Part shown: positions 766-38,347 of the stretch, one piece after another | Numbering within the stretch: the stretch's first letter is position 1 | Layout: the number at the start of each line of letters is the position of its first letter | Virus record (IMG/VR): IMGVR_UViG_3300045988_153982 | Coordinates: 1-38,347 of that record | Length of the DNA stretch: 38,347 nucleotides | From: a virus | Strand: one strand, 5' to 3' | Translations under genes and position numbers: made by a program | The notes under the pieces: model-generated | Database searches by the model: none | The model's input: only the letters and a program-made list of their open reading frames with translations | What the model was told of the DNA's origin: nothing

Positions 766-1995
766 ATGATAAGTGAAGAATTACAAGAAAAGTTGTTAAG
801 TGTATTTAATAAAAGATTTCAAGATTATAACACAAAAGTATTAGAAGAATTAGGAAATGTTATTAAGCAATTTAAGGATTTAACCCCATCACAGGCTTAC
901 AAGTTAGGTCAGCAACTAAAATACAATACAACTATCAAGGGCTTATTAGATGAGTTATCTAAAATCAGTGGCTTGTCTGTTAAAGACTTGAAAGCAATAC
1001 TAGAAAAGGTTGCAAAAGAGAATATTGGTTTTGCTGATGTGTATTATAAAGCAAGAGGACTTGAAACACCTATTTATAGTGAAAATAAAGCACTTCAGAG
1101 GCTTGTTTCTAGTGTTTATAGTATAAGTGGCACAGAATTTAAAAACATTGCTAAAAGCACAGGTTTTAGGCTTTTAGGAGATAATGGTAAGCCTTTGCTA
1201 CTAGATATTGATGAAACATACAAGTATGTAATAGATAAATGTGTAATTGCTATTAGTCAAGGAAAAGAAACATATCAGCAAAGTATGAGAAGCACTTTAA
1301 AGCAATTATCTTCAAGTGGAGTTCGTAAAATAGAATATGAGAGTGGTTATTCAAGAAGATTAGATACTTCTATTAGGCAAAATATACTTGATAGCATGAG
1401 GCAAGTATCAAATGAAAGCCAACAATTATTTGGCAAAGAATTTGATAGTGATGGTGTAGAAGTATCAGTACATGAAATGCCAGCACCAGACCATGAATTG
1501 GTACAAGGTCGACAATTTAGTAATAAAGAATTTGAAAATTTCCAAAATGATAGAAAAGCAGTTGATTATACTGGTATGGTATTTGAACCCGAATTTAAGG
1601 GGCATGATAGAAGAAGTATAAGTGAATATAACTGCTATCATTACATATTTAGTATAGTTTTAGGTGTATCTAAACCACAATATAGTAATAAGCAATTACA
1701 AGAAATAATTGATAACAAAAACAAAACATTTGAATTTGATGGCAAGACTTATAATATGTATGAAGGCACTCAATTACAAAGAAGAATTGAAACAGCTATT
1801 CGTGAAGCAAAAGATACACAAATACTAGCACGAGCAAGTGAAGATAATGAATTAGTATTACAAAGCCAAACAAGAATTACACAATTAACAACAAAATACA
1901 AGCAATTATGCAATATAAGTGGTCTACCTAACGAGTTATCTACTAGGGCTAGTGTTCCAAATTATAAAAGAATTGCAAAAAACAAATTAATGTGA
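766..1995 (+). CDS. Putative head morphogenesis / minor capsid protein (SPP1 gp7 / Mu F-like)
   Basis: AAGGAG RBS. 409 aa. Sits upstream of scaffold and major capsid. Carries an HEMPAPDHEL...NCYHY region typical of gp7-like minor head proteins. Assignment is partly by position. Confidence 0.5.
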   Translation: MISEELQEKLLSVFNKRFQDYNTKVLEELGNVIKQFKDLTPSQAYKLGQQLKYNTTIKGLLDELSKISGLSVKDLKAILEKVAKENIGFADVYYKARGLETPIYSENKALQRLVSSVYSISGTEFKNIAKSTGFRLLGDNGKPLLLDIDETYKYVIDKCVIAISQGKETYQQSMRSTLKQLSSSGVRKIEYESGYSRRLDTSIRQNILDSMRQVSNESQQLFGKEFDSDGVEVSVHEMPAPDHELVQGRQFSNKEFENFQNDRKAVDYTGMVFEPEFKGHDRRSISEYNCYHYIFSIVLGVSKPQYSNKQLQEIIDNKNKTFEFDGKTYNMYEGTQLQRRIETAIREAKDTQILARASEDNELVLQSQTRITQLTTKYKQLCNISGLPNELSTRASVPNYKRIAKNKLM

Positions 1996-2001
1996 TATAA
2001 T
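1973..2001 (+). promoter_or_regulatory. Sigma-A-like promoter TTGCAA-N17-TGaTATAAT (extended -10)
   Basis: ttgcaa at 1973..1978, 17-nt spacer ending tgtga, tataat at 1996..2001. The TGA stop of the upstream gene forms the TG extension. Same architecture at 29584..29612 and 28761..28789. Confidence 0.5.
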
Positions 2002-2483
2002 TAATGCGGTGGGAAAAGTTTTTTACAATTTATTTACGTGTTACCTTTATAGGTAGCATAGAATAGATATATAACCTGTGTTGTATCTTAAAGTTATTGA
2101 AAGATAAAAACTATTGCAATAGTTATATCTATTCTATGGTGCTTATAAAAAGCACTAAACACTCCATATAGAACTCAGGGGTTTTTGGAGGTTATTATCT
2201 CCACATTATTGGAATGTTGCACCTAACACTATCTTAACAGGTAGTGTACTGATGATATATAAAAAACAAGACAGAGGTTTTTAACATATTAAATTATGGT
2301 TTTATACTCAACCGTCCTAGTAACTCTAGTGAAAAAAACTTATAGAGTATTGGTGAACTTTGACACCTATATCATTAGTGCAGTATCTATTAAAGATACA
2401 ATTGTAATCATAGTAAGATTTTTATTGGGGCTACTCTGGGCGACCTTATGAGTAGATAATAGGCTGTCAACCTAAAATTGAAT

Positions 2484-2507
2484 GGTGGTTCGAGTCCACC
2501 CACTTGC
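2484..2507 (+). other. tRNA-like T-arm element (ggtgg-ttcgagt-ccacc plus 7 nt) with no matching 5' acceptor strand
   Basis: Perfect 5-bp stem and canonical TTCGAGT T-loop seen in the sequence. No complementary gcaagtg within 150 nt upstream, so it is not a full tRNA. Confidence 0.35.
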
Positions 2508-2613
2508 TAAAAACATAATAATTAAGTATAATTTGACACATTAGAAAGGTTATTGTTGTTGATAGTGTATGTGAAGTGTGTTTGGCTAACATACCCCTGA
2601 TGTATTTGAAATT

Positions 2614-2640
2614 AAGCAACCTTAAATGGTTGTTTTTTTG
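2614..2640 (+). terminator. Rho-independent terminator
   Basis: gcaacc-ttaaat-ggttgt hairpin followed by a T7 run. Confidence 0.55.
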
Positions 2641-2669
2641 TGGCTTATTTAATAAAAAATAAATAAAAA

Positions 2670-2726
2670 CAGATACCCTATCTATACCCTATCTATACCG
2701 TAGGTATACATCTGTATCTGTATATA
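2670..2726. repeat. Iteron cluster (GATACCC/TATACCC/GGTATAC cores, tandem taccctatctat x2, tctgta x2). Second copy of the origin repeats found inside the replisome-organizer gene.
   Basis: Shares tctataccctat (12 nt) and atacatctgtatctgtat (18 nt) with 24294..24347. Confidence 0.55.
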
Positions 2727-2815
2727 TATATTATTTATTATTATTTATATTAATTATTATTAAATATATTATTAAAATAAATGTATATAATTTATAAATT
2801 TTAAATATTTTTTTG
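2727..2815. promoter_or_regulatory. Very AT-rich tract flanking the iterons (candidate DNA-unwinding element)
   Basis: About 90 nt of near-pure A/T (tatatatatattatttattattatttatattaattattattaaatat...). Confidence 0.4.
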
Positions 2816-2820
2816 TAATT

Positions 2821-2849
2821 TTGACAAGAATAAAAAGTTGTGGTATACT
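2821..2849 (+). promoter_or_regulatory. Consensus sigma-A promoter TTGACA-N17-TATACT upstream of the scaffold/capsid genes
   Basis: ttgaca at 2821..2826, 17-nt spacer, tatact at 2844..2849. Confidence 0.65.
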
Positions 2850-2910
2850 TTTAACTAGATATTAAATCTAGTTGGAGTAGACCAACGAAAAAAATCTAGG
2901 AGGAGATATT

Positions 2911-3486
2911 ATGAAAGATTATTTAGAAAAATTAGAAATTGGAGAAGAAGGGCTTACAAAAGACCAAATAAAAGGTATTATTGCTGAGGCAAGCAAAATG
3001 ACTACTAATGAAGTTAATAAAATTAAAACTGAATTAGAAAAAGAAATTGCCGAAAAAGATGAAGTAATAAAATCACTTAATGAAGATATAAAAAAATCTC
3101 CAAGTGCTGATGAACTAGAAAATCTAAAATCAAAAGTTGCTGATTATGAAACAAAAGAAAAAGAAAGAAAAAAACAAGAAGATAAAAAAATCTTTGAGGA
3201 AAATCTTAATAAAAATGTTTTAGAGGCAATTGGCGATGCTGAATTTGTTAATGAAAGAACAAAAAATGCAATCATTAATGAAGTAAAAATTGCTTTACAA
3301 GATAAAGCAAATGTTGGCAAATCTGCTAAAGATATTTTTGAAACTATCACAAAAGATAGCACAGACATATTTAAAAATAAAAACGAGTTAAGTGATATGC
3401 CTGATATTCAAGAAAGTAAACCTGCAGAAGGCAAGTCAACAAGCGAGGGTATAAAAATCAACCCTATGTTCAAAACTGATTTTTAG
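2911..3486 (+). CDS. Head scaffolding protein
   Basis: GGAGGAG RBS. 191 aa, highly charged coiled-coil protein directly upstream of the major capsid gene. Confidence 0.6.
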   Translation: MKDYLEKLEIGEEGLTKDQIKGIIAEASKMTTNEVNKIKTELEKEIAEKDEVIKSLNEDIKKSPSADELENLKSKVADYETKEKERKKQEDKKIFEENLNKNVLEAIGDAEFVNERTKNAIINEVKIALQDKANVGKSAKDIFETITKDSTDIFKNKNELSDMPDIQESKPAEGKSTSEGIKINPMFKTDF

Positions 3487-3508
3487 AAAGAAAAGGAGAG
3501 ATTAAATT

Positions 3509-4426
3509 ATGGCTAATACAATTAACCATGCTGCAAAATATAATAGAGAATTAATCGAAACATTTATTGAAAATTCTTATGCAGCACCATTTGTTGCGAC
3601 TAATGTTGATTGGTTAGACGCAAAAAACTTCCATTTTACAATTTTAAAAACTGGAGGTTATAAAAACCATGCTTTAACTGGAGGATGGAACAGACAAGAA
3701 ATAACTGAAACTGACAAAGTTTACACAGTTACTCAAGACAGAGATGTAGAGTTCTTCTTAGATAAAAGAGACGTTGACGAAAGCAACAGAACTGCTACAA
3801 TTGAAAATGTATCAAATACATTTGAAAAAACACAAGCAACACCAGAAAAGGATGCTTACTTCTTTAGTAAAGTTGCAACTGAAGCAACAACTGCTAACAT
3901 GAGTAGTTCAACTGCTATTGCAGATTATACTAGTGCAAATATCTATACTAAGGTAGTTCAATTCATTGGTAAATTAAGAAGATACAGAAATAAAGGTTTA
4001 ATCGTTTATATTGCACCTGAATTAATGGACTTATTAGCATTATCAACTGAATTAACACACCCAATTGAAAGTATGGGATTTGTTGAAGGTGGAAAAGCAA
4101 TTCAAACAAGAATTACAAAAGTAGACAATGTTCCAGTTGTTGAAGTAATTGATGATGACCGTTTCTATTCACAATTTAACTTTACTGACGGATTTGCACC
4201 AGCAAAAGGTGGATTTAAAATCAATATGTTAGGTTGTACTCCAATGACAACTAAAGTTGTACCAAAAATTGAAAGTATTTATTTCTTTGCACCAGGAGAA
4301 CATACTGAAGGCGATGGATACTTATATCAAAACAGAGCACACTATGATACATTCGTATTCCCTAACGGAAAAGATGGCAAAGTTGATAGTGTTTATGTAG
4401 ATTTAGATACAACTGCTGTTGCTTAA
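3509..4426 (+). CDS. Major capsid protein
   Basis: AAGGAGAG RBS. 305 aa. Position after the scaffold gene. Codon usage like a highly expressed structural gene. Confidence 0.65.
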   Translation: MANTINHAAKYNRELIETFIENSYAAPFVATNVDWLDAKNFHFTILKTGGYKNHALTGGWNRQEITETDKVYTVTQDRDVEFFLDKRDVDESNRTATIENVSNTFEKTQATPEKDAYFFSKVATEATTANMSSSTAIADYTSANIYTKVVQFIGKLRRYRNKGLIVYIAPELMDLLALSTELTHPIESMGFVEGGKAIQTRITKVDNVPVVEVIDDDRFYSQFNFTDGFAPAKGGFKINMLGCTPMTTKVVPKIESIYFFAPGEHTEGDGYLYQNRAHYDTFVFPNGKDGKVDSVYVDLDTTAVA

Positions 4427-4612: not shown

Positions 4613-5008
4613 ATGGAGTTTAAAGGACAATATCTAACTTATCAAGAGTATCAACTTCTTGGTGGAACTCTTGAAGAAATGCCTTTTAATTTATTAGAAT
4701 ATAATGCTAGAAAGAAAATTGATGAAAGAACCTTTGGAAGATTAATTGATAAAGGACAAGAATATCAAGAAGTTAAATTGTGTGTTTATAATATGATTAC
4801 AACTTTAAATAGTTATAGTTCATACGACACACAAAATAAGGCTATTTCAAGTGAAAGCGCTGATGGTTATAGTATTTCATACGGAACACCCCAAAAGTCT
4901 ACTACAGAGGCTAAAAATAGTGAATTAGAAGATGTTATAAATAGTTATCTTGCTAATGTTGTTATAGACAATGTTCCTGTGTTATATAGAGGTGCAGATG
5001 TTAGTTAA
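4613..5008 (+). CDS. Head-tail connector / head completion protein (gp6/gp15-like)
   Basis: Position and size (131 aa) in the head-tail joining cluster. AGGAGG RBS. Confidence 0.45.
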   Translation: MEFKGQYLTYQEYQLLGGTLEEMPFNLLEYNARKKIDERTFGRLIDKGQEYQEVKLCVYNMITTLNSYSSYDTQNKAISSESADGYSISYGTPQKSTTEAKNSELEDVINSYLANVVIDNVPVLYRGADVS

Positions 5009-5689: not shown

Positions 5690-6129
5690 TGATTACTGAT
5701 GTTGAAAACACAAGAATTGCTAAACTTGGCAAATATTTAGAAACTATACTTGAAGAATTAAATAGCAAGTATAAAAAGATAAATGCTGATTTTTTAGAAA
5801 TTGAAGTTAATAATTACTCGCTTGATAAGATACCAACCGCTAGTACTGTTGAAGAAGATATTACTGGCAGTAGAATTTGTCGTGATGTATATTCATTTAG
5901 AGCGCGTAACCCATATTCTAGTGATAGATTAATTAATTTAAAAAACATAGGTTTTTTCGAGGAATTTGAAAGTATTATAAAATCTAATAATGACGAGGAC
6001 GTTTTGCCTGAAATTGATGGAATAGAAAGTATTGTATGTTTAAATTCTGGTACATTCAATTATGCAGATGAAAGTATGAAAACAGCAGTATTTGATATTC
6101 AATTACAAATTACATATGAGGAGGAATAA
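5689..6129 (+). CDS. Tail terminator / tail completion protein
   Basis: ATGA overlap. 146 aa. Positional call. Confidence 0.4.
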   Translation: MITDVENTRIAKLGKYLETILEELNSKYKKINADFLEIEVNNYSLDKIPTASTVEEDITGSRICRDVYSFRARNPYSSDRLINLKNIGFFEEFESIIKSNNDEDVLPEIDGIESIVCLNSGTFNYADESMKTAVFDIQLQITYEEE

Positions 6130-18491: not shown

Positions 18492-18568
18492 GTACCGTTG
18501 ACGAAGTGGTTTAACGACAATGTCTGCAAAACATTGATACACAGGTTCAAATCCTGTACGGTACTCCA
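18492..18568 (+). tRNA. tRNA-Cys (anticodon GCA at 18526..18528) with encoded 3' CCA
   Basis: Perfect 7-bp acceptor stem gtaccgt/acggtac. T-arm acagg-ttcaaat-cctgt. Anticodon stem caatgt/acattg with 7-nt loop cTGCAaa (U33 and A37 present). Discriminator t then cca. The D-arm pairing is weak. Confidence 0.65.
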
Positions 18569-18656: not shown

Positions 18657-19157
18657 ATGATAAATTTAGGGAAATTTTCTGATTCAAACACAAGTAAAGA
18701 GGTTATATTGGAAAAATTAGAAAATGGTTGTGTAAAATGTATATCACATTGTACTGATAAAGATGGATATGTAAGAATAAGTTACAATGGAAAACATGAA
18801 AGACTTTTTAGAGTTCTTTATATGCAAAAATTTGGTAATATTCCTAAAGGAATGGTAATAAGGCACTTATGCAATAATTCTTGGTGTTGTAATATAGAAC
18901 ATTTAAAAATAGGCACTCATAAAGAAAATTATGAAGATATGGTAAAATGTGGAAGAAGTCAATTAGGAAAACCAAATTTATCTGCTCGTGGAGAAAAAAA
19001 CAATTTTCACAAATTAACTAACAAGGAAGTTGAAGAGATATATTTAAGTTCTTTAAGCCAAAAAAAATTATCCAAATTATATAAAGTAAGTAGAACAAAT
19101 ATTTCCCATATTAAAAATAAACAGCAATGGGAATGGTTGACTGATACGTTAGATTAA
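18657..19157 (+). CDS. HNH homing-type endonuclease (HNH_3 with C-terminal DNA-binding region)
   Basis: GGGAG RBS. Motif ...GYVRISYNGKHERLFRVLYMQKFG...IRHLCNNSWCCNIEHLKIGTHKEN. Confidence 0.8.
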   Translation: MINLGKFSDSNTSKEVILEKLENGCVKCISHCTDKDGYVRISYNGKHERLFRVLYMQKFGNIPKGMVIRHLCNNSWCCNIEHLKIGTHKENYEDMVKCGRSQLGKPNLSARGEKNNFHKLTNKEVEEIYLSSLSQKKLSKLYKVSRTNISHIKNKQQWEWLTDTLD

Positions 19158-19331: not shown

Positions 19332-19393
19332 CCTTAAAATAATAATATATAACAAAAATATAATAAAAATATAAAAAAAATATAAAAAAAGTA

Positions 19394-19422
19394 TTGACAT
19401 TATATTAAAAATGTGTTAATAT
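19394..19422 (+). promoter_or_regulatory. Early promoter TTGACA-N17-TAATAT
   Basis: ttgaca at 19394..19399, taatat at 19417..19422, in a 290-nt AT-rich intergenic region with short A-rich direct repeats. Confidence 0.65.
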
Positions 19423-20952: not shown

Positions 20953-21183
20953 ATGGACAAATGGGATTTTAAAGACTATGTGCCAACAAAAAAAGAAAAG
21001 AAAATTGATAGAGAAGAATTTTTAGCACAATTTGTTCAATGCCCAGAATGTGGGTACAGAAATAAAAAAGTTTTTTTAGAAAGAATAGGGGCTTGCAAAT
21101 GTTGTGGAAAGATTTTAGACCCAAAAGCACATATGAAATATGTTATAAACAAAAAGAAAAAAAATTATAATAAAAAGTATTAA
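20953..21183 (+). CDS. Zn-ribbon protein (CPECG...CKCCG)
   Basis: Two CxxC pairs form a zinc-ribbon signature. Confidence 0.45.
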   Translation: MDKWDFKDYVPTKKEKKIDREEFLAQFVQCPECGYRNKKVFLERIGACKCCGKILDPKAHMKYVINKKKKNYNKKY

Positions 21184-21190
21184 AATAATA

Positions 21191-21219
21191 TTGAAATAAT
21201 ACATAAAAAGTAGTATAAT
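21191..21219 (+). promoter_or_regulatory. Promoter TTGAAA-N17-TATAAT
   Basis: ttgaaa at 21191..21196, 17-nt spacer, tataat at 21214..21219. Confidence 0.6.
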
Positions 21220-21242
21220 TATATATAAGAAAAGGAGGTAAA

Positions 21243-21365
21243 ATGATATTGATACATGTTAAAATTGATGAAAGCTTAAAAAAACAACTTGAAGAAGAAG
21301 CAAAAGCCAAAGGGCTTTCATTAAACGCTTACATTAGAATGCTTTTAATTGAAAGGAAAAAGTAA
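21243..21365 (+). CDS. Ribbon-helix-helix (CopG/Arc-like) small DNA-binding protein, 40 aa
   Basis: AAGGAGG RBS. MILIHVKIDESLKKQLEEEAKAKGLSLNAYIRMLLIERKK has beta-strand / helix / helix RHH architecture. Below the ORF-track cut-off. Confidence 0.5.
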   Translation: MILIHVKIDESLKKQLEEEAKAKGLSLNAYIRMLLIERKK

Positions 21366-21366
21366 A

Positions 21367-22794
21367 ATGACTTTAGAAGAAGTTAAGCAAGAATTAAGAG
21401 TATTTGATAAGTTTAAATTTTTTGAAGATGACCATCATTATGAATGTAATAGTAAAAGAGTTGGAATTAGTGTTACGAGATTAATTGAAGAATATAGTAA
21501 TCCATTTGACCAACAAGCAATTGCTGAAAAAGTGGCAATAAGAGATAATAAAAGTGTTAGTGAAGTTCTTGAAGAATGGGAATATAAAAACAAATTTGCT
21601 TGTGTGAAAGGTAGTACTTGCCACGAATATGCACAAAGTATCTGGAGTGGCGAAGAATATAATGAATTATTATTTGATGGCAGTATTGAATATTTAACTG
21701 CAGTAAATAAAATTCAAAGTCAAGCAATGAATTTTTGGAAAGATTTTAAAGATAAATTCATTCATATTCAAGATGAACAACTTGTTGGCAGCGAAGAATA
21801 TGATATTTGTTCGGCAGTAGACCATTTATTCCTTGATAAAGAAGGTAATGTTTGGTTAATAGACTACAAAACAAATAGTATTCTTAAAGGTTACAATGAT
21901 GATGAAAAAAATCGAAGATATACTAAAAAAATGCTTATTCCATTGCAAAATTTAAAAGATGATGCACTTCATCACTATTATTTACAATTAAGTATTTATA
22001 AATATTTAATTGAAAAATATACGAATATAAAAATTTATAAAACAATGATTGTCTATATGAGTGAAAATATTAAAAAATATGAACTTATTGAAACAACATA
22101 TTTAATGAAAGAAGTAGAATTAATATTAGAAAATAGGAGGGAAAGAAAAATGGGAAAATGTATTCCAATATTAATTATCGGGCATTCTGGGAGTGGTAAG
22201 AGTGCTAGCTTGAGAAATTTAAGCAAAGATGATTATTCTTTAGTAAATCCACTTGCAAAAAGATTACCTTTTAAAGGAGGACAAGCAGGGCTTGAAAGTT
22301 GTGATTATGAATTAATCAAAAAATTTATTCAAGAAACGCCAAAAAATATTATAGTAATAGATGATAGTAATTATTTGCTTACTATTGAAATGATGAAAAA
22401 AGCAAAAGAAACAGGTTATGGCAAGTTTACAGATATTGCTTTAAATTATTGGAAATTAATTGAATTTATTAAAAATCTTGATGGAGATAAAAGAGTTTAT
22501 TTAATGAGCCATGAAGAAATTGATGAATTTGGAAATGTTGGGGTTAAGACAGTTGGCAAAATGTTATCAAATCAATGTTGCGTTGAAGGACTTTACACAA
22601 TAGTCTTAAGAGCTATTAATGAAAATGGCAAGTTCCAATTTAGAACTAAAACGGCAGGCAATGATATTGTAAAATCACCTATGGGAATGTTTGAAGATGA
22701 ATTGATTGATAATGATTTAAAATTAGTAGATGATACTATTTGTGAATATTATGAAATAAAAAAAGAAAAAAAGAAAGGTGAAGAAAATAAATAA
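21367..22794 (+). CDS. Fusion protein: N-terminal RecB-family PD-(D/E)xK nuclease plus C-terminal P-loop ATPase (AAA_24/Sak4-like RecA-fold)
   Basis: Nuclease motifs: VDHLF (D), LIDYKT (D/ExK), QLSIY (QxxxY). ATPase motifs: GHSGSGKS Walker A, IIVIDDSNY Walker B. An in-frame AGGAGG-N9-ATG at 22135..22152 allows separate initiation of the ATPase part. Confidence 0.65.
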   Translation: MTLEEVKQELRVFDKFKFFEDDHHYECNSKRVGISVTRLIEEYSNPFDQQAIAEKVAIRDNKSVSEVLEEWEYKNKFACVKGSTCHEYAQSIWSGEEYNELLFDGSIEYLTAVNKIQSQAMNFWKDFKDKFIHIQDEQLVGSEEYDICSAVDHLFLDKEGNVWLIDYKTNSILKGYNDDEKNRRYTKKMLIPLQNLKDDALHHYYLQLSIYKYLIEKYTNIKIYKTMIVYMSENIKKYELIETTYLMKEVELILENRRERKMGKCIPILIIGHSGSGKSASLRNLSKDDYSLVNPLAKRLPFKGGQAGLESCDYELIKKFIQETPKNIIVIDDSNYLLTIEMMKKAKETGYGKFTDIALNYWKLIEFIKNLDGDKRVYLMSHEEIDEFGNVGVKTVGKMLSNQCCVEGLYTIVLRAINENGKFQFRTKTAGNDIVKSPMGMFEDELIDNDLKLVDDTICEYYEIKKEKKKGEENK

Positions 22795-22997
22795 TGATAA
22801 GATTAAAAACAAAATTTGATGTAAGAAAAGATGAAACACCCGTAAAATTAATGGCAATAAATTCTTGCGCATATGAACATATAGTCGCAATTGCGTATTT
22901 AGTTAAAAGTATAAAAGATAATGATGAAACAATAACTAAAAAAGAATTAATAAAAAATGTAGAAGATTTAATGAAAATAATAGAAGGAGAAAAATAA
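22794..22997 (+). CDS. Hypothetical protein (67 aa)
   Basis: ATGA-coupled. Confidence 0.35.
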   Translation: MIRLKTKFDVRKDETPVKLMAINSCAYEHIVAIAYLVKSIKDNDETITKKELIKNVEDLMKIIEGEK

Positions 22998-22998
22998 T

Positions 22999-23604
22999 AT
23001 GATAAAAAAACCAAGTAATTATGATAAAGTAGAAGTAATGGAGTTTGATTTTACACCTATTGAACTAGGTGGCCACAAATTAGTGATAAAAAAGGCGGAA
23101 GAATATACAAGTGAGCAAAGTGGAAAATTAAGTTTAAAAGTTTACGTAGATACAGCTTCAGATGATAAACAACCAGAATATTTTGCAGAACAATATAGAA
23201 ATGATACAAGACCTGACAGAAGATGGAGCAATTCAGCTATAAAATATATTTCTTTAGGAGAAGAAGAAAATCAAGTTAGAATGCTTAAAGGGTTTATAAC
23301 CGCATATGAAAATTCAAATAATTGTGAGTTTGATTGGTCAAAAGACTGGGCGCAACTTACAAATAAAAAAATCGGTGGAGTATTTGGTATGGAAGAATAT
23401 GAAGATGCTGAAGGCAAATTAAGAACTAATAATAAATTAAGAGATTTTAGAAGTTTAGATAAAGTAGATAATATTAAAATTCCTAAAGTAAAATTATTGG
23501 ATGGAAGTTATGTTGAATATGATGAATATGTAAAAAATAACGCAAATACAAGTCAAGAAAAAAACGATGAAATAGTGATTGATGCACTTGAATTGCCATT
23601 CTAA
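22999..23604 (+). CDS. DUF669-family protein (SSB-like partner of Sak4-type recombinases)
   Basis: N-terminal EFDFTPIELGGHKLVIKKAEEYTSEQSGKLSLKVYV resembles the DUF669 signature. GGAGAA RBS. Confidence 0.5.
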   Translation: MIKKPSNYDKVEVMEFDFTPIELGGHKLVIKKAEEYTSEQSGKLSLKVYVDTASDDKQPEYFAEQYRNDTRPDRRWSNSAIKYISLGEEENQVRMLKGFITAYENSNNCEFDWSKDWAQLTNKKIGGVFGMEEYEDAEGKLRTNNKLRDFRSLDKVDNIKIPKVKLLDGSYVEYDEYVKNNANTSQEKNDEIVIDALELPF

Positions 23605-23911: not shown

Positions 23912-24613
23912 ATGGCGATTTATAGAAATGTATCATTATCTTTTTGGGAAGATATAAAAATTGTTGATGATTTTACTCCTGAAGATAAATATTTTTATTT
24001 ATATTTATTGACTAATCCACATACTAATTTATTAGGTTGTTATCAAATATCTTTTAAGCAAATGACTAATGAAACTGGTTATAACAAAGATACAATTGAA
24101 AAATTAATTGATAGAATGGTGTCAAAACACAAAGTTATTGAATTTGATTTTGAAACAAATGAAGTTTTTATTAAAAAGTGGTACAAATATAATTGGACAA
24201 GAAGTGATAAATTACTAAAAAATGTTGAAAAATTAATTCAATATATAAAAAGTGATATTTTTAAAGAAAATATGTTAAAATTGGTAGAAAAATATAGGGT
24301 ATCAATAGGGTATCTATACCCTATGGATACATCTGTATCTGTATCTGATTTAAATAATATTAATATTAATAATAATAATAATAAAGAATTAATATATAAA
24401 TTATTTAAAGAATATATTAAATTAAGAGAAGAAAATAAATATAATATATCTGAAAGCATAGTAAATAGATTAACAAAAAAATTAAATGAATATGGCAAAA
24501 CTGATGAAGATAAAATTGAAATAATTAGTCAAGCCATAAATGGCAAATGGAAAGATTTTTATGAATTAAAAAAAGAAGAAAAAAAAGAAGGAGTAATTTA
24601 TGAGACAATATGA
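23912..24613 (+). CDS. Phage replisome organizer (DnaD-like N-terminal domain) with internal origin repeats
   Basis: N-terminal SLSFWEDIKIVDDFTPEDKYFYLYLLTNPHTNLLGCYQIS matches the replisome-organizer N-domain pattern. Iterons and the AT-rich tract lie inside the CDS. Followed by the DnaB-like helicase. Confidence 0.7.
   Translation: MAIYRNVSLSFWEDIKIVDDFTPEDKYFYLYLLTNPHTNLLGCYQISFKQMTNETGYNKDTIEKLIDRMVSKHKVIEFDFETNEVFIKKWYKYNWTRSDKLLKNVEKLIQYIKSDIFKENMLKLVEKYRVSIGYLYPMDTSVSVSDLNNININNNNNKELIYKLFKEYIKLREENKYNISESIVNRLTKKLNEYGKTDEDKIEIISQAINGKWKDFYELKKEEKKEGVIYETI
24294..24347. repeat. Iteron cluster inside the replisome-organizer gene (GGGTATC x2, TATACCC, GGATAC, tctgta x3), putative primary origin
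   Basis: Direct and inverted 7-8-nt cores. Followed by the (AAT)n / AT-rich tract 24350..24420 encoding poly-Asn/Ile. Shares 12- and 18-nt blocks with 2670..2726. Confidence 0.6.
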
Positions 24614-25811
24614 TTTGGAATTAAATATAATCGGTTGTATTTTTTATAAACCAGAACTTATAAACGAATTATTTATTGATATGAGTTGTTTTAAAAATAG
24701 TTATAATAAGCAAGTTATACTACTATTAAAAAAAGTTTGGGAAAATGAAAAAAAATTGGATATTACAATTTTATTGAACTACATCAAAGATTTTAAAGCC
24801 AGAGATAGATTTATGAACTATTATACAGAAACAATAGACTTAATAATATCTCCAACAAATTTTTATGAATACCAACAAAAATTAATCGACCAACATAAAG
24901 ATGATTTAATCAAAGCAGAAATTAATAAATATGCGAAAAACCAAATTGAAATTGATGAATTGGTTGAAAACATAAATAAAATTTCAAACGAAGTTATGGT
25001 TATAAAACAAAATAATAAAAAAACCCCAGAAGAAATGATTTATATGATTAGAAATCGTGAAAAGATAATACAATTTGATAGATTTAGATTTTTGAATGAA
25101 AGACTAAGAATTAAAAAAAGAACAATAAACGTTATTGGGGCTAGACCAAGTGAAGGAAAGTCAGCACTTGCATTAAATTTGTTTTGTGACTTGGCAAAAA
25201 AATATAAAAGTATTTATTTCAATATGGAAATGACAGAAGAAGAAGTTTACGAAAGAATGCTTGGAATTGAAAGCAATATTCCAATTTCTGATATTAATAA
25301 GCCACAATCAGAATTTCAAGATGAAAAAATAATGGAAGCAGCAAATAGAGTTTATAATTTTAAATATGAAGTTATAAACGGAAGTAAGACAGTGCAATCA
25401 ATTAAAAACAAAATTATTAAAGAACAAAGAGAAGAACATTTAATAGTTTTTATTGACTACACAGGCTATATTGTTGGAAAGCAAGGGCAAAATGATAGAG
25501 AAAGAATTGGTGAGGCAGTAAGAGAACTTAACAACATTACCAAAGATTATGATTGCACAATATTTTTAATTGCACAAATAAATAGAAATGGTAGTGACAC
25601 ACCAACAATGCAAGATTTAAAAGATAGTGGTGAAATAGAGCAAACGGCAGATACAATTATTCTTATACATGATGAAAACAAACAAAATAATGTTGATGTT
25701 AAAGAAATTGGCTTACTAGTTCCAAAATGCCGTGGTGGTAAAAGAAATGTTAGAATACCTGTTGTGTTCGATAAACCAAAACAAAGATTTTATGAAAGTG
25801 AGGGCAAATAA
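24600..25811 (+). CDS. Replicative DnaB-like helicase
   Basis: AAGGAG RBS. RecA-fold motifs GARPSEGKSALALN (Walker A), FIDYTGYI, LIAQINRNG fit the DnaB C-terminal domain. Confidence 0.85.
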   Translation: MRQYDLELNIIGCIFYKPELINELFIDMSCFKNSYNKQVILLLKKVWENEKKLDITILLNYIKDFKARDRFMNYYTETIDLIISPTNFYEYQQKLIDQHKDDLIKAEINKYAKNQIEIDELVENINKISNEVMVIKQNNKKTPEEMIYMIRNREKIIQFDRFRFLNERLRIKKRTINVIGARPSEGKSALALNLFCDLAKKYKSIYFNMEMTEEEVYERMLGIESNIPISDINKPQSEFQDEKIMEAANRVYNFKYEVINGSKTVQSIKNKIIKEQREEHLIVFIDYTGYIVGKQGQNDRERIGEAVRELNNITKDYDCTIFLIAQINRNGSDTPTMQDLKDSGEIEQTADTIILIHDENKQNNVDVKEIGLLVPKCRGGKRNVRIPVVFDKPKQRFYESEGK

Positions 25812-27071: not shown

Positions 27072-27479
27072 ATGAAATATTATTATGAATATAAAGAAAA
27101 AAATGGTTGTAAAGTTGGTGGAATAATGAATAGAGAAATAAAATTTAGAGGAAAAACTTATAATGGAAAATGGATATATGGATATTGTTATAAAGTTAAA
27201 AGTCTATTTGACCAACAATTTAATTGGTTTATAAGAAACGATTATCAAACTGATGATATGATTATTCCTGAAACACTAGGACAATACACAGGTTTAAAGG
27301 ATAAAAATGGTGTAGAGATTTATGAAGGTGATTTGATTTTAATTGGAGAAAAAAGAAGAAAAGTAGAAGTTATATTTAAAGATGGAAATTTTGGATATTT
27401 ATATAATGGTGTTTGTGTACCATTTCAAAATCAAAATCCAGAAGTAATAGAAAATGTGTGGGATAAAAATGATTGTTAA
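27072..27479 (+). CDS. YopX-family protein
   Basis: NREIKFRGK...YTGLKDKNGVEIYEGDLI...IENVWDKND match YopX hallmarks. The true start may be the internal ATG at about 27126. Confidence 0.7.
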   Translation: MKYYYEYKEKNGCKVGGIMNREIKFRGKTYNGKWIYGYCYKVKSLFDQQFNWFIRNDYQTDDMIIPETLGQYTGLKDKNGVEIYEGDLILIGEKRRKVEVIFKDGNFGYLYNGVCVPFQNQNPEVIENVWDKNDC

Positions 27480-27960
27480 ATTTCAAAAGAAAATTGAATT
27501 TATAAATGATTGTAACTGTATTGTTGATTACGAAGAACTAGAAAAAGCAATGTTATGGTATCAAGATAAACCAACATCAAGATTAAAACATATTTATATG
27601 TTTGGTAATTATCCAGCAGTTACGATTTTTAAAGAAAAAATACATATTCATAGATTATTAATGATGTATTGGAATGGTATAAGAAAACTAGATAAAAATA
27701 CATATGTTCATCATATAGATGAAAATAAATTAAATGCCTCAAAAGATAATTTAATGTTTATTAATGCCTCATTACATCAAAGCAAACATAATAAAGGTAA
27801 AACAATATCTGACTATCAAAAAGAAAAAATAAGAATGTCTAATCATTTAAGAAAAGGGATTAAAAAACATATAAAAAATAAAAGAACAACTTTACTTAAT
27901 AGGGATGAGTTGGGAGGGTTTGTTAAAACTGAAAATATTTATGAAAATGAGGTTGATTAA
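27469..27960 (+). CDS. HNH endonuclease (HNH_3)
   Basis: YVHHIDENKLNASKDNLMFINASLHQSKHN motif. ORF-track start is 27454. Confidence 0.65.
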   Translation: MIVKFQKKIEFINDCNCIVDYEELEKAMLWYQDKPTSRLKHIYMFGNYPAVTIFKEKIHIHRLLMMYWNGIRKLDKNTYVHHIDENKLNASKDNLMFINASLHQSKHNKGKTISDYQKEKIRMSNHLRKGIKKHIKNKRTTLLNRDELGGFVKTENIYENEVD

Positions 27961-28225: not shown

Positions 28226-28783
28226 ATGATTTTATTAGAAGATACAAGAAATCAAATAAACAAGCATAAAAATGTCCATAAATATTGCAAAGAAAATGAC
28301 ATTGAAATCATCAGAAACAAATTAATAGTAGGCGATTATATGTCGCCTAATGTTAGCCATATTTCAATAGACACAAAATTTGGGCTTCAGGAAATTATGA
28401 AAAACATTACAGAAAAAAGGTTTAGGAACGAATTATTATTAAGTAAAAAGTTAGGAATAAAACTTATTGTTCTTATAGAAAATTCTTCTGATATTAATTC
28501 TATTGATGAAATACCTTTGAAATGGAAAAATCAAAGGCTTGAGTTTTACAAATTTCAATTAAAAAAGCAATTAGGACTTTTTGGGGAATTTAACGAGTGG
28601 CATTTATACCGTGAGGCAAAAGACAAAGGCTTAAAACCGCGAAAACCCCCAATAAGCCCTGAGCAACTTAGAAAAGCATTACACACCATTGAAGATAACA
28701 AAGAAGATTATGATGTATCTTTTAAATTCTGTTCTAAAACCGAAACAGGGCAAAAGATACTTGAAATTTTATCTCAAAAATGA
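28226..28783 (+). CDS. Hypothetical protein, possible PD-(D/E)xK/ERCC4-like nuclease fold
   Basis: LIVGDY...ISIDTK loosely resembles GDY...ERK nuclease motifs. Weak evidence. AAGGAG RBS. Confidence 0.4.
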   Translation: MILLEDTRNQINKHKNVHKYCKENDIEIIRNKLIVGDYMSPNVSHISIDTKFGLQEIMKNITEKRFRNELLLSKKLGIKLIVLIENSSDINSIDEIPLKWKNQRLEFYKFQLKKQLGLFGEFNEWHLYREAKDKGLKPRKPPISPEQLRKALHTIEDNKEDYDVSFKFCSKTETGQKILEILSQK

Positions 28784-31719: not shown

Positions 31720-32490
31720 ATGAAGATATTTTTAAGTGCAATAGAAAACGCTCAAGCAAGTGGCAAAGGCGGTAAACCTGTGGCGCAAATAATGATTGAA
31801 AAAGGAATAAAATTGCAATATAATTTAATGTCATATTTTTATATAAAAAACAAAACAACATTAGCAGAAATGATAAGAGATAATTCTGAATGTATATTGA
31901 TAGACAGTGGTGCTCATAGTTTTCAAAAAGGAAAGAAAGTAGATTGGGTTGATTATACAAAAAAATATGCGCAATTTATAAAAGAATTTGATAAGCCAAA
32001 TGTTATAGGTTACTTTGAAATGGATGTAGATAATATTATTGGGTATGACAAAGTATTAGAATTAAGAAAAATTCTTGAAAGTGTATCAAGCAAAATTATA
32101 CCAGTATGGCACAAAAATAGAGGGATAGAAGAATTTAAAAAGATGTGCCATGATTATCAAAATAAAGTAATTGCAATAACAGGTTTTAAAAATGAAGATA
32201 TAAAAGATGAGCAATATTTAATGTTTTTAAAGTATGCCAAAAAGTATAATTGCAAAGTGCATTGCTTAGGAATGACAAGAAAAAAAGTATTGGATAAAGT
32301 ACCGTTTGATTATGTGGATAGTAGTAGTTGGGTACAATCAACAGTATTTGGTAGAATAGATGGAAAAGGCAAGGTAACGAAAAATTTTAGTAAAACAAAT
32401 AGAGAAATGGTGTTTATACAAAATTATTTAGAAGCTAAAAAAATGCAAGAATATTACTATCAAAAATGGAAAAAAATATGCAAAGATTAA
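31720..32490 (+). CDS. tRNA-guanine-transglycosylase-like protein (DpdA-family candidate, 7-deazaguanine DNA transglycosylase)
   Basis: ILIDSGAHSFQKG parallels TGT [IL]LTDSGG[YF]Q. HCLGMTRKKVLDKVPFDYVDSSSW parallels TGT LMGVG.P...MFDCV.PTR / archaeal FDSAxY. No Zn-binding C-terminal domain. Weak RBS, and the start codon lies in a cttcat-tcaa-atgaag hairpin. Confidence 0.65.
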   Translation: MKIFLSAIENAQASGKGGKPVAQIMIEKGIKLQYNLMSYFYIKNKTTLAEMIRDNSECILIDSGAHSFQKGKKVDWVDYTKKYAQFIKEFDKPNVIGYFEMDVDNIIGYDKVLELRKILESVSSKIIPVWHKNRGIEEFKKMCHDYQNKVIAITGFKNEDIKDEQYLMFLKYAKKYNCKVHCLGMTRKKVLDKVPFDYVDSSSWVQSTVFGRIDGKGKVTKNFSKTNREMVFIQNYLEAKKMQEYYYQKWKKICKD

Positions 32491-34658: not shown

Positions 34659-34688
34659 GCTATAAATTTAAAAAATGTTAATTTAGTA

Positions 34689-34717
34689 TTGACAAAGTAA
34701 ATATAATATAGTATAAT
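34689..34717 (+). promoter_or_regulatory. Consensus promoter TTGACA-N17-TATAAT driving the SSB/small-protein block
   Basis: ttgaca at 34689..34694, 17-nt spacer, tataat at 34712..34717. Confidence 0.7.
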
Positions 34718-34748
34718 TAAAGTATAAATTGAAAAGGAGAGATGAAAG

Positions 34749-35657: not shown

Positions 35658-35995
35658 GTAAAATTTGTGGATATAGTTGTGAACATAATAAAAGTGGTGT
35701 TTGTCAAATATCAGTATGTAGTAAAAAATCAAATATGAAAGATAAAACGGAAACAGAGTTATTTAGAGAAACTTGGTATGAGATAAGTCAAATACGACAA
35801 TTACAACAAGAAAATAAACAATTAAAAGATAATTGGAATAAGTTAAAAGAATATATAAAAGAAACTAAGTTAAAGGAATTTGAAAAATCATATGGTAAAA
35901 GATATGGAAAAACATTTACACAAGCAGAAATAATTGTGTGTAATATGATTTTAAATAAAATGCTAGAAATAGAAGGAAGTGATAGTGATGAATGA
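35654..35995 (+). CDS. Zn-ribbon plus coiled-coil protein
   Basis: N-terminal CGYSCEHNKSGVCQISVC cysteine cluster followed by heptad repeats. Confidence 0.45.
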   Translation: MSKICGYSCEHNKSGVCQISVCSKKSNMKDKTETELFRETWYEISQIRQLQQENKQLKDNWNKLKEYIKETKLKEFEKSYGKRYGKTFTQAEIIVCNMILNKMLEIEGSDSDE

Positions 35996-36182
35996 AGATT
36001 TAATAACAATGACTGTTAATCAAAAAACAAATGCTATAGATTTATATAATTTTATACAAAGATGTCTTCCGTTTGATACAGTAATAGAATTATACAAATT
36101 AATTCAATACAAATTAATTAATTTAGATGATGAACCTTATAATTATTGTAATTTGGCGAAGAAAGTAGAGAGTGATGAGTAA
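35979..36182 (+). CDS. Hypothetical protein (67 aa)
   Basis: ORF. Start uncertain (alternative ATG at 35988). Confidence 0.35.
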   Translation: MIVMNEDLITMTVNQKTNAIDLYNFIQRCLPFDTVIELYKLIQYKLINLDDEPYNYCNLAKKVESDE

Positions 36183-38109: not shown

Positions 38110-38347
38110 TGATAAAAGTAACATTTGAAAAAGATTATAGCAAAGATTTTAATATTAAATTTTATGGATTAATACAACTTAATATTGTTTATGATAATGG
38201 AAAAGTAGTATCAATCAAAGAAAAAAAGAAAGCAAAAGAATTAGTTGAAGAAATAACAAAGTTTAAAGAATTTTATGACATAAAAACTGATGATGTCATA
38301 ACTATAATTGATATGTATTTTGCTAATTATTTTAATATAGAATACAT
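38109..38347 (+). CDS. Hypothetical protein CDS running off the window end. Completes at 138 via the terminal repeat (about 86 aa in total).
   Basis: ATGA overlap with the upstream stop. Frame is continuous into the repeat and on to TAG at 136..138. Confidence 0.5.
   Translation, partial: MIKVTFEKDYSKDFNIKFYGLIQLNIVYDNGKVVSIKEKKKAKELVEEITKFKEFYDIKTDDVITIIDMYFANYFNIEY
38229..38347. repeat. Second copy of the terminal direct repeat (equals 1..119)
   Basis: Identical sequence to the window start. Confidence 0.95.

What the first reader, a model, noticed from the sequence alone, without database searches (positions are those of the whole stretch)
2670..2849. Second, distal copy of the origin iterons plus DUE in the noncoding region (oriL/oriR-like duplication)
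The same sequence blocks as the intragenic origin (tctataccctat; atacatctgtatctgtat) recur 16.7 kb away (about 21.6 kb in the other direction on the circle) at 2670..2726. They are again followed by a roughly 90-nt pure-A/T tract and then a consensus TTGACA-N17-TATACT promoter for the scaffold/capsid genes. Two dispersed binding-site clusters for one initiator are a hallmark of SPP1 (oriL and oriR). The second copy may be a true second origin, or an initiator-dependent regulator of the late structural promoter.
Basis: seen in the sequence. Interest (0 to 1): 0.6.

Follow-up and report, generated by a model that had tools for sequence, protein, structure and literature searches.

The report
Second initiator-matched replication origin copy
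This uncultured phage has a second, non-coding copy of the protein-binding repeats of its replication origin beside the most easily melted DNA in the genome, as in Bacillus phage SPP1, and in related phages the copy always matches that phage's own initiator protein.

Summary
The 9-mer ATACCCTAT occurs five times in the 38.2-kb circle, only at 2673/2684 (site A) and 24294/24305/24316 (site B). Site B lies inside the replisome-organizer gene, just upstream of a DnaB-type helicase gene. The 18-mer ATACATCTGTATCTGTAT occurs only at these two sites. The best ungapped match is 41/51, against 28.2±1.0 in shuffled genomes. The two least stable duplex stretches in the genome directly follow sites A and B.

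Three assembled genomes carry both sites (the window and two IMG/VR contigs). Two related phages have a different initiator and different repeats (CATATG plus GAAAAT). At the same place, on the same AT tract, their distal copy carries those repeats instead. Across about 230 viral contigs the repeat type tracks the initiator's N-terminal domain type without exception.

Site A is therefore a selected, initiator-matched origin module. It is analogous to SPP1 oriR and sits in the same position, between the minor-head and scaffold genes. The initiator's DNA-binding domain is unrelated to that of SPP1 G38P.

I cannot tell whether site A fires as an origin or acts as an initiator-bound fork barrier. 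Control of the late promoter is unlikely. I rate it a new member of a known kind.

The parts
2614..2642 (+). Intrinsic terminator ending the upstream ORF-less transcription unit. It shields site A from read-through transcription.
   Evidence: stem 2614-2635 followed by a T run. Conserved in all relatives.
2673..2703 (+). Site A iterons: ATACCCTAT at 2673 and 2684 (exact) and a degenerate ATACCGTAG at 2695, spaced 11 bp apart.
   Evidence: Identical in 4 independent assemblies.
2706..2723 (+). Site A hexamer-repeat element ATACATCTGTATCTGTAT, an exact copy of 24327-24344.
   Evidence: exactly 2 occurrences in the genome. It is kept in non-coding sequence, so the constraint acts on the DNA (inference).
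2721..2820 (.). AT tract, the putative DNA unwinding element of site A. It is the least stable duplex stretch in the whole genome.
   Evidence: rank 1 at window sizes of 40, 60, 100 and 150 bp (z = 4.0 to 4.7). The same tract follows the type-2 iterons in contigs 150927 and 130501. It is absent wherever the iterons are absent.
2821..2849 (+). Sigma-70-type promoter with an extended -10 (TTGACA, 17-nt spacer, TGgTATACT), reading into the scaffold and capsid genes.
   Evidence: 11 of 12 positions. This is a consensus match only. Contigs 110108 and 000244 have a different promoter here.
2911..4426 (+). Scaffold gene (2911-3486) and major head protein gene (3509-4426), downstream of site A.
   Evidence: PF06810, 7.9e-09; phrog_422, 4e-70.
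766..1995 (+). Minor head protein gene upstream of the non-coding region. It occupies the position of SPP1 gene 7.
   Evidence: PF06152, 2.7e-54; phrog_581.
23912..24613 (+). Replisome-organizer (initiator) gene, 233 aa. N-terminal domain is aa 1-122 and C-terminal domain aa 152-224. Site B lies in the linker between them.
   Evidence: phrog_6251 at 1.5e-41 and phrog_1701 at 1.9e-33 (N-terminal part), phrog_678 (C-terminal part). Translation.
24294..24347 (+). Site B, the intragenic origin. Iterons at 24294 (-), 24305 (-) and 24316 (+), followed by ATACATCTGTATCTGTATCTG.
24348..24447 (.). AT-rich region after site B, encoding NNININNNNNKELIYKLF. It is the second least stable duplex stretch in the genome.
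   Evidence: rank 2 at all window sizes (z = 3.7 to 4.3).
24600..25811 (+). DnaB-type replicative helicase gene, overlapping the end of the initiator gene. No separate loader ORF lies between them.
   Evidence: PF03796, 2.3e-38; phrog_19, 9e-61.
21349..23604 (+). Exonuclease-Sak4-like annealase fusion (21349-22794) and SSB (22999-23604). These are recombination functions that could restart a stalled fork.
   Evidence: phrog_298 plus phrog_2872; phrog_18107 and phrog_378.
28226..28783 (+). ERCC4-type structure-specific nuclease, a candidate for processing forks or junctions.
   Evidence: phrog_3490, 1.9e-26.

Best explanation
Site A (2673-2820) is a second origin-type module matched to the phage's own initiator. 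It has three 11-bp-phased iterons, a hexamer-repeat element and a DNA unwinding element.

Inferred mechanism. The 233-aa replisome organizer (23912-24613) binds through its N-terminal domain both to the iterons inside its own gene (site B) and to the same iterons at site A. At site B it melts the adjacent AT-rich stretch and recruits the DnaB-type helicase encoded immediately downstream, which starts theta replication.

Role of site A. It sits behind a terminator in the head-gene cluster and plays the role proposed for SPP1 oriR. It is either a second place where the initiator can open DNA and load helicase, or a tightly bound nucleoprotein block. Such a block would stall the fork coming from site B. 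The phage's exonuclease/Sak4 annealase, SSB and ERCC4-type nuclease could then convert the stalled fork into recombination-dependent concatemer synthesis for packaging. Because site A keeps a complete and conserved unwinding element, I favour a site that can open DNA over a bare roadblock.

Shown here: the sequence anatomy, the duplex stability, the conservation, and the co-variation of iteron type with initiator type.
Inferred: protein binding, DNA melting, and any effect on replication mode.
For: 1. Specific duplication. All 5 exact 9-mers and both exact 18-mers in the genome lie in sites A and B. The best match is 41/51 against a null of 28.2±1.0.

2. Unwinding elements. The two least stable duplex stretches in the genome directly follow sites A and B, at every window size tested.

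3. Site B has a classic intragenic-origin context. It lies in the linker of a replisome-organizer gene next to a DnaB helicase gene.

4. Conservation. The site A core and about 55 nt of AT tract are identical in the window, contigs 110108 and 000244, and an 8.2-kb fragment. Meanwhile the flanks diverge: scaffold 73% aa identical or replaced by a different gene, different promoter, unalignable upstream sequence. Contigs 110108 and 000244 also carry site B, about 20-21 kb away.

5. Co-variation.
- Contig 150927 has a helicase 97% identical to the window's, but a different initiator. That initiator's gene contains three CATATG boxes at 11-bp spacing followed by GAAAAT repeats.
- Its distal site lies in the same terminator-to-promoter slot, on the same AT tract, and carries CATATG boxes plus GAAAAT repeats instead of ATACCCTAT and GTATCT.
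- Contig 130501 repeats this arrangement.
- The two motif sets are mutually exclusive between the genome types.

6. The iteron type tracks the N-terminal domain type across IMG/VR.
- Type-1 N-domain: tblastn hits in 53 of 114 loci with ATACCCTAT iterons and in 0 of 120 loci with CATATG iterons.
- Type-2 N-domain: hits in 0 of 114 and 107 of 120 loci.

7. The iterons and the AT tract come and go as one unit. Contigs 102451 and 122510 have the terminator followed directly by the promoter.

8. Precedent. SPP1 G38P binds oriL and oriR in vitro with similar affinity, and oriR lies in the segment between the minor-head and scaffold genes (PMC5737612, PMC6316719, PMC3485210).
Against: - There is no experimental binding or replication data for this phage, and its host is uncultured.
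- The fork-barrier role of SPP1 oriR is itself only a proposed model.
- Two close relatives sharing the head module (contigs 102451 and 122510) lack any distal site, so it is not needed by every phage with this head module. I could not recover their replication modules.
- Cultured phages with a related N-terminal domain (Geobacillus virus E2 and phiCD505) have only the intragenic cluster.
- GC skew gives no origin signal, because all genes lie on one strand.
- Recurrent gene conversion from site B into an AT-rich recombination hotspot could produce matched copies without any function.
Confidence: 0.72

Rival explanations
1. Negative copy-control or handcuffing locus. The extra iterons would titrate the initiator, or pair with the origin iterons through initiator-mediated looping, to limit or time initiation. 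This is how P1 incA and other plasmid iteron control loci work. Site A would never fire as an origin.
For: The same iterons occur at two distant sites and match the initiator type. The title of the original SPP1 study says G38P forms specialised nucleoprotein complexes with both regions (own knowledge of Missich et al. 1997; not read here).
Against: Control loci need iterons only. Site A also keeps the hexamer repeat and the least stable AT tract in the genome, and iterons and tract are gained and lost together. A phage with no lysogeny genes among the ORFs I scanned has little obvious need to restrain replication.
Confidence: 0.1
2. Initiator-dependent regulator of the scaffold/capsid promoter. 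Initiator bound at site A would activate or repress the promoter at 2821-2849, tying late gene expression to replication.
For: Site A lies directly upstream of a near-consensus sigma-70 promoter for the structural genes. A consensus promoter in front of late genes would seem to need some form of timing control (inference).
Against: The iterons end about 100 bp upstream of the -35 hexamer. Contigs 110108 and 000244 have an identical site A but a different promoter, and in 110108 a small extra ORF follows it. Contig 122510 has the same type of promoter as 110108 directly after the terminator, with no iterons and no AT tract. Site B has the same iteron architecture with no promoter downstream.
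Confidence: 0.08
3. Selectively neutral by-product of recombination. The AT-rich slot in the head-gene cluster would be a hotspot that repeatedly receives ectopic gene-conversion copies of the intragenic origin, and these copies would do nothing.
For: Only the iteron-plus-hexamer segment (about 55-68 nt) is copied, and its edges lie in A/T-rich microhomology. These phages encode Sak4-type annealases, which can recombine short and diverged sequences (PMC5499656). Some close relatives lack the copy.
Against: Site A is base-for-base identical in four assemblies whose flanks have diverged. Matched copies exist for two unrelated initiator types in the same slot and orientation, with intact 11-bp phasing. 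A neutral copy would be expected to decay or to mismatch after a module swap.
Confidence: 0.08
4. Chance similarity of low-complexity TA/TG-rich sequence.
For: The genome is 27% G+C, and the 18-mer is a near-microsatellite. It also matches unrelated IMG/VR contigs, inside a gene conserved among unrelated contigs.
Against: The match is 41/51 against a null maximum of 31. The 9-mers occur only in the two clusters. Both sites are conserved together in relatives, and the iterons co-vary with the initiator.
Confidence: 0.01

Closest known systems
Bacillus phage SPP1 oriL / oriR, bound by the replisome organizer G38P
   Same: - One iteron cluster with an AT-rich unwinding element lies inside the initiator gene.
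- A second, directly oriented cluster with an AT-rich region lies in a non-coding segment.
- That segment interrupts the head genes, after a terminator, between the minor head protein gene and the scaffold gene (PMC6316719).
- A DnaB-type helicase gene lies downstream of the initiator gene.
- Phage exonuclease, annealase, SSB and a junction or fork nuclease are all encoded.
   Different: - The initiator N-terminal domains are unrelated. BLASTP finds no similarity, and the two proteins share phrog_1701 only through different parts of the protein.
- The iteron sequences are unrelated (ATACCCTAT versus GACAC(G/A)GAAAA-type boxes).
- There is no separate G39P-like loader ORF.
- In SPP1, three moron genes separate oriR from the scaffold gene. 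Here the site lies about 90 bp upstream of the scaffold gene, and a roughly 640-nt ORF-less transcription unit precedes it.
Lambda-type intragenic origins (ori-lambda in gene O, and origins inside rep genes of lactococcal, streptococcal and staphylococcal phages)
   Same: Site B has phased iterons and an AT-rich region embedded in the linker between the DNA-binding and helicase-recruiting domains of the initiator. The C-terminal part matches phrog_678, 'replication initiation O-like'.
   Different: As far as I know, these systems are described with a single origin. This phage adds a distal non-coding copy.
Satellite phage P4 ori and crr (own knowledge, not checked here)
   Same: Two separated cis elements carry the same initiator-binding repeats.
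   Different: P4 alpha protein is a primase-helicase-initiator fusion. crr is required in cis for ori function and has no unwinding element of its own. There is no sequence or protein relationship to this phage.
Plasmid iteron control loci such as P1 incA (own knowledge, not checked here)
   Same: Extra copies of the origin iterons lie outside the origin and bind the same initiator.
   Different: Those loci lack an unwinding element and act as negative regulators in stably maintained replicons. Site A has the strongest candidate unwinding element in the genome.

Membership tests
SPP1-type dual origin (oriL/oriR) | Iteron cluster plus adjacent AT-rich unwinding element inside the initiator gene | tested here: met
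   Site B at 24294-24447 lies in the linker of gene 23912-24613.
SPP1-type dual origin (oriL/oriR) | Second cluster of the same repeats plus an AT-rich region in a distant non-coding segment, in direct orientation | tested here: met
   Site A at 2673-2820, 21.6 or 16.6 kb away on the circle.
SPP1-type dual origin (oriL/oriR) | Distal site lies in the head-gene cluster between the minor head protein and scaffold genes, bracketed by a terminator and a promoter | tested here: met
   Window order: minor head gene 766-1995, terminator 2614, site A, promoter 2821, scaffold gene 2911. SPP1 order: gene 7, terminator, oriR at about 4876-4950, genes 8-10, gene 11 (PMC6316719).
SPP1-type dual origin (oriL/oriR) | Both sites bound by the same replisome organizer | not testable with these tools
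   Indirect support only. Distal iterons co-vary with initiator type in 5 genomes. Iteron type tracks N-terminal domain type across about 230 loci.
SPP1-type dual origin (oriL/oriR) | Initiator homologous to G38P | tested here: not met
   BLASTP E = 3.9. The best PHROG families differ, and the shared phrog_1701 is matched through different regions of the two proteins. This is an analogue, not a family member by descent of the DNA-binding domain.
SPP1-type dual origin (oriL/oriR) | Separate helicase loader (G39P) between the initiator and the DnaB-type helicase | tested here: not met
   The initiator ORF (ending at 24613) overlaps the helicase start (24600), and no ORF lies between them. The helicase itself is present.
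Iteron-type replication origin | At least three initiator-binding repeats in helical phase next to the least stable duplex region | tested here: met
   An 11-bp register at 2673/2684/2695/2706 and at 24294/24305/24316/24327. The two sites rank 1 and 2 for duplex instability.
Iteron-type replication origin | Supports initiator-dependent initiation of DNA synthesis | not testable with these tools
   Needs a plasmid-origin assay, 2D gels or marker-frequency analysis.
Host DnaA-dependent origin | Cluster of DnaA boxes (TTATCCACA) at the site | tested here: not met
   15 one-mismatch hits genome-wide against 15.5 expected, none in site A and none exact.
Plasmid-type iteron control locus (incA-like) | Extra iterons without their own unwinding element | tested here: not met
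   Site A is joined to the least stable 100 bp in the genome, and this tract is lost together with the iterons in relatives.

The most novel reading that the evidence does not exclude
The distal origin may be a modular and widespread feature of Firmicutes-type siphophages, not a peculiarity of SPP1. In this reading, a fixed 'landing pad' in the head-gene cluster (a terminator followed by an AT-rich unwinding element) receives a copy of about 60 bp, iterons plus hexamer repeats, from whichever initiator gene the genome currently carries. After a replication-module swap, selection would re-create a matched second site.

This would mean the second site is needed for the theta-to-concatemer switch, or for coupling replication to head-gene expression and packaging. 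A corollary concerns the 6-nt repeats that follow the iterons in hundreds of phage initiator genes. They would be a DNA-level origin element, functionally comparable to the DnaA-trios of bacterial oriC, and not just the coding sequence of a low-complexity protein linker.
Probability: 0.3. Interest if true: 0.6.

Novelty: new member of a known kind. Interest (0 to 1): 0.45.

Why it matters
In the papers I could search, SPP1 is the only phage described with two sites bound by one replisome organizer, and the role of its oriR is still a model. This case shows the same layout with an unrelated DNA-binding domain, and in relatives with a second unrelated initiator type. The distal copy is always matched to the resident initiator and always sits in the same slot between the minor-head and scaffold genes. 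This comparative evidence suggests that such second sites are under selection.

It also offers natural 'swap' variants for testing what oriR-like sites do: act as a second origin, act as a fork barrier that triggers concatemer synthesis, or something else. Finally, because the hexamer repeats survive in non-coding copies, they are flagged as part of the origin itself.

Tried and rejected
- **Nucleotide search of known phages.** blastn of 1900-3600 against INPHARED phages found no match.
- **RNA searches of the site and its surroundings.** Rfam gave only a sub-threshold mir-1277 match, an artefact of the AT-rich palindromic sequence. The only family reaching its Rfam threshold in the window is tRNA-Cys at 18492, and related loci gave nothing. 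ARAGORN does not call the T-arm-like element at about 2430-2510 a tRNA or tmRNA.
- **DnaA boxes.** They occur at chance level and none lies at site A.
- **GC skew.** It is uniformly positive and uninformative, because all genes are on one strand.
- **Literature search for the iteron.** Searching for ATACCCTAT or ATAGGGTAT returned only unrelated primer sequences among the listed papers.
- **Solved structures.** Neither initiator type has a meaningful relative by sequence.
- **Exact 18-mer in IMG/VR.** Most of the 57 hits lie inside a gene conserved among unrelated contigs and are irrelevant. Only 14 loci, from 9 contigs, belong to this phage group.
- **Replication modules of the relatives lacking a distal site (contigs 102451 and 122510).** I could not recover them. 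So I cannot say whether site A is dispensable for a phage with a type-1 initiator.
- **Contig ends near site A.** The 8.2-kb fragment starts 10 nt before the first iteron. I considered a genome end or pac site, but one contig end is not evidence, and I did not pursue it.

Full report
**What is in the sequence**

The window is a circular phage contig. Bases 1-119 repeat at 38229-38347, so the genome is 38,228 bp. It is about 27% G+C, and all the genes identified lie on the + strand.

The finding lies in a 915-bp stretch without a conserved ORF (1996-2910). This stretch separates a minor head protein gene (766-1995; PF06152) from the scaffold gene (2911-3486; PF06810) and the major head protein gene (3509-4426; phrog_422).

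Site A reads cagATACCCTATctATACCCTATctATACCGTAGgtATACATCTGTATCTGTAT at 2670-2723. After it come 100 bp of 98% A+T (2721-2820), made of pure A/T runs of 62 and 31 nt. Then comes a promoter-like site: TTGACA, a 17-nt spacer, and TGgTATACT (2821-2849, 11 of 12 positions). An intrinsic terminator (2614-2642) lies just upstream of site A.

Site B reads ATAGGGTATcaATAGGGTATctATACCCTATggATACATCTGTATCTGTATctg at 24294-24347. It lies inside ORF 23912-24613.

**More than chance**

- The exact 9-mer ATACCCTAT occurs five times in the genome, on either strand, and all five are in site A or B.
- The exact 18-mer occurs twice, once at each site.
- The best ungapped match of the 51-nt B core anywhere else is 41/51, at 2673. 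In 200 Markov-shuffled genomes the mean is 28.2 ± 1.0 and the maximum 31.
- The 9-mers keep one 11-bp register at both sites. The first two are inverted in B (GGG core) relative to A (CCC core).

**Both sites look like origins**

ORF 23912-24613 is a replisome organizer. Its aa 1-122 match the N-terminal part of phrog_6251 ('replisome organizer DnaA-like', 1.5e-41) and of phrog_1701. Its aa 152-224 match the C-terminal part of phrog_678 ('replication initiation O-like'). The iterons and the AT-rich stretch encode the linker YRVSIGYLYPMDTSVSVSDLNNININNNNNKE.

A DnaB-type helicase gene (24600-25811; PF03796, 2.3e-38) overlaps the end of this ORF. Upstream lie an exonuclease-Sak4 annealase fusion and an SSB. 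An ERCC4-type nuclease gene lies at 28226-28783.

A nearest-neighbour stability scan of the whole circle ranks 2721-2820 first and 24348-24447 second as the least stable duplex. This holds at windows of 40, 60, 100 and 150 bp. DnaA boxes are at chance level.

**Relatives with both sites**

Two IMG/VR genomes have an initiator about 80% identical to the window's: contig 3300045988_110108 (37.9 kb) and contig 3300032007_000244 (34.5 kb). Both carry both sites, about 20-21 kb apart. An 8.2-kb fragment carries site A upstream of a scaffold gene 97% identical to the window's.

The site A core and about 55 nt of AT tract are identical in all four assemblies. The flanks are not:
- The scaffold protein is 73% identical in 110108 and is a different gene in 000244.
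- The promoter after the tract differs in both (TTGATT...TGATATAAT).
- Contig 110108 has an extra zinc-finger-like ORF.
- The sequence further upstream is unalignable.

**The decisive comparison**

I collected phages that share the minor head gene and inspected the gap between the terminator and the promoter.
- Contigs 102451 and 122510 have no iterons and no AT tract. The promoter follows the terminator directly.
- Contig 150927 (minor head protein 94% identical) has the same AT tract as the window. It is preceded not by ATACCCTAT but by gATATGtaaaaCATATGaataaCATATGGAAAATGAAAAT.

A search with the helicase recovered the replication module of 150927. Its helicase is 97% identical to the window's, but the initiator is a different protein (231 aa, with a weak, sub-threshold DUF1376 match). 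That initiator gene contains aACATATGtttttCATATGttaaaCATATGGAAAATGAAAATGAAAAT.

So the distal site of 150927 copies the intragenic origin of its own initiator. Contig 130501 shows the same pairing, again upstream of the scaffold gene. The alignment shows a shared terminator and a shared AT tract flanking an exchanged iteron cassette. The two motif sets are mutually exclusive between the genome types.

**The iterons belong to the N-terminal domain**

Both iteron types are widespread in IMG/VR.

| N-terminal domain queried (tblastn) | Loci with ATACCCTAT iterons (n = 114) | Loci with CATATG iterons (n = 120) |
|---|---|---|
| Type 1 (window) | 53, of which 51 within 1.2 kb of the iterons | 0 |
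| Type 2 (contig 150927) | 0 | 107, all within 1.2 kb of the iterons |

This supports the inference that each initiator recognises the repeats in its own gene, and therefore also the matched distal copy.

**Comparison with SPP1**

In X97918, oriL lies in gene 38 at about 35950-36020. oriR lies at about 4876-4950, after the terminator of gene 7 (minor head protein, PF04233) and before genes 8-10 and the scaffold gene 11.

The literature states the following:
- G38P binds both sites in vitro with similar affinity (PMC5737612).
- Both sites consist of direct repeats plus an AT-rich unwinding element, and oriR sits in a segment that interrupts the virion-assembly genes (PMC6316719).
- G38P bound at oriR is proposed to stall the fork and trigger the switch from theta to sigma replication, with help from phage recombination proteins (PMC3485210).

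The window matches this layout, including the position of the distal site. However, its initiator shows no BLASTP similarity to G38P, the iterons are unrelated, and there is no separate loader gene. It works like SPP1 without being a member of the G38P family.

**Mechanism and its limits**

I consider it well supported that site A is a selected binding site for the resident initiator, coupled to an unwinding element. The iterons and the AT tract are gained and lost as a unit. The tract is kept when the iterons are exchanged. Together these argue that site A can open DNA and is more than a bare roadblock or a promoter UP element.

I cannot decide between a second origin and a fork barrier. Promoter regulation is disfavoured for three reasons: the distance to the -35 hexamer, the different promoters behind identical copies of site A, and the presence of the same type of promoter without iterons in contig 122510. 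Neutral gene conversion is disfavoured by the base-perfect conservation and by matched copies for two unrelated initiator types.

**How general is it**

Most contigs carrying these iterons appeared only once in the truncated scans. Geobacillus virus E2 and C. difficile phage phiCD505, which have related N-terminal domains, have only the intragenic cluster.

The two-site layout was seen in five assembled genomes (the window plus four IMG/VR contigs) sharing the region between the minor-head and scaffold genes. A similar non-coding site (terminator, iterons, ATACATCTGATACTGAT, then about 130 bp of AT-rich DNA) also sits in an unrelated, more G+C-rich 53-kb contig (L105).

Relatives with a type-1 initiator and a slightly different site B occur inside long bacterial contigs, one of them a MAG of an uncultured Bacilli bacterium. 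The hosts are therefore probably low-GC Bacilli.

**Verdict**

This is a new member of a known kind, the SPP1-like dual origin. The new element is comparative evidence that the distal copy is kept matched to the initiator.

Noticed in passing
window 1973-2645: A conserved promoter (TTGCAA, 17-nt spacer, TGnTATAAT, 1973-2001) and a terminator (2614-2642) bracket about 640 nt with no conserved ORF. The region is built of long hairpin modules. Their bases are conserved (TTTATAGGTAGCA...TGGTGCTTATAAA...GTACTGATGATATATAAA...TATATCATTAGTGCAGTATC) and their tops vary. The number and order of modules differ between relatives, and two relatives (L197, L198) have an HNH endonuclease ORF inserted. The MFE z-score is -7.6, and there is no Rfam hit. 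This is a candidate large structured phage RNA of unknown function.
   Followed up: partly
window 2425-2597; also L042, L177-L180: A block of about 175 nt is nearly invariant and contains a tRNA-like T-arm (GGTGGTTCGAGTCCACC) and an anticodon-loop-like CTGTCAA hairpin. Neither ARAGORN nor Rfam calls it a tRNA. In four other IMG/VR phages it lies directly after an upstream ORF, ahead of a long non-coding leader of a downstream gene, with no iterons nearby. The sequences vary too little to give covariation.
   Followed up: partly
IMG/VR loci L062-L175 and L224-L343: Phage initiator genes show a general three-part origin grammar: 11-bp-phased iterons, then a tandem repeat of about 6 nt (GTATCT, GAAAAT, GAAAAA, GATAAA, CTGATT and others), then AT-rich DNA. 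The 6-nt repeats are kept in the non-coding distal copies. This suggests they act at the DNA level and do not merely encode a low-complexity linker.
   Followed up: partly
L105 11440-11660 (IMGVR_UViG_3300045988_144952): A more G+C-rich 53-kb phage contig carries an isolated AT-rich island. It consists of a terminator, ATAGGGTAT/ATACCCTAT iterons, ATACGGTAGGTATACATCTGATACTGAT, about 130 bp of AT-rich DNA and a TTGACA promoter-like hexamer. This is a non-coding origin cassette very like site A in an unrelated genome.
   Followed up: partly
window 2855-2899: Two small hairpins lie in the 5' UTR just before the scaffold RBS (CTAGAT-ATTAA-ATCTAG and GTTGG-AGTAGA-CCAAC). The first shows a compensatory U-A to C-G change in L003. 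They may be an mRNA processing or translation-control element.
   Followed up: no
window 21349-22794 and 28226-28783: The phage encodes a single ORF that fuses an exonuclease (phrog_298) to a Sak4-like annealing protein (phrog_2872). It also encodes an ERCC4-type nuclease (phrog_3490). Together with the SSB these form a recombination toolkit.
   Followed up: partly
window 31720-32490: A homologue of queuine tRNA-ribosyltransferase (Tgt/DpdA-like; phrog_887, 4e-39) sits between the terminase and portal genes. It might modify the phage DNA or tRNA with 7-deazaguanine.
   Followed up: no
window 19352-19402, 21171-21221, 34669-34719: Three copies of a roughly 51-nt promoter-like repeat (TTGACA...TATAAT with a shared AT-rich upstream part) probably mark the early and middle transcription units (family D2).
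   Followed up: no
window 18492-18568; 18657-19157; 27454-27960: A tRNA-Cys (GCA) gene lies at 18492-18568, and two HNH endonuclease ORFs lie at 18657-19157 and 27454-27960. None of the ORFs I scanned is an integrase or a repressor, while relatives with a similar site B sit in long bacterial contigs.
   Followed up: no
L004 1045-1173; L200 about 5700-5830: In some relatives a small Cys-rich ORF (MKEYRCMCGKLLFKGKFKGIISIMCRHCKKLIEFHNLENQDK, zinc-ribbon-like by eye) lies between the distal site or promoter and the scaffold gene.
   Followed up: no
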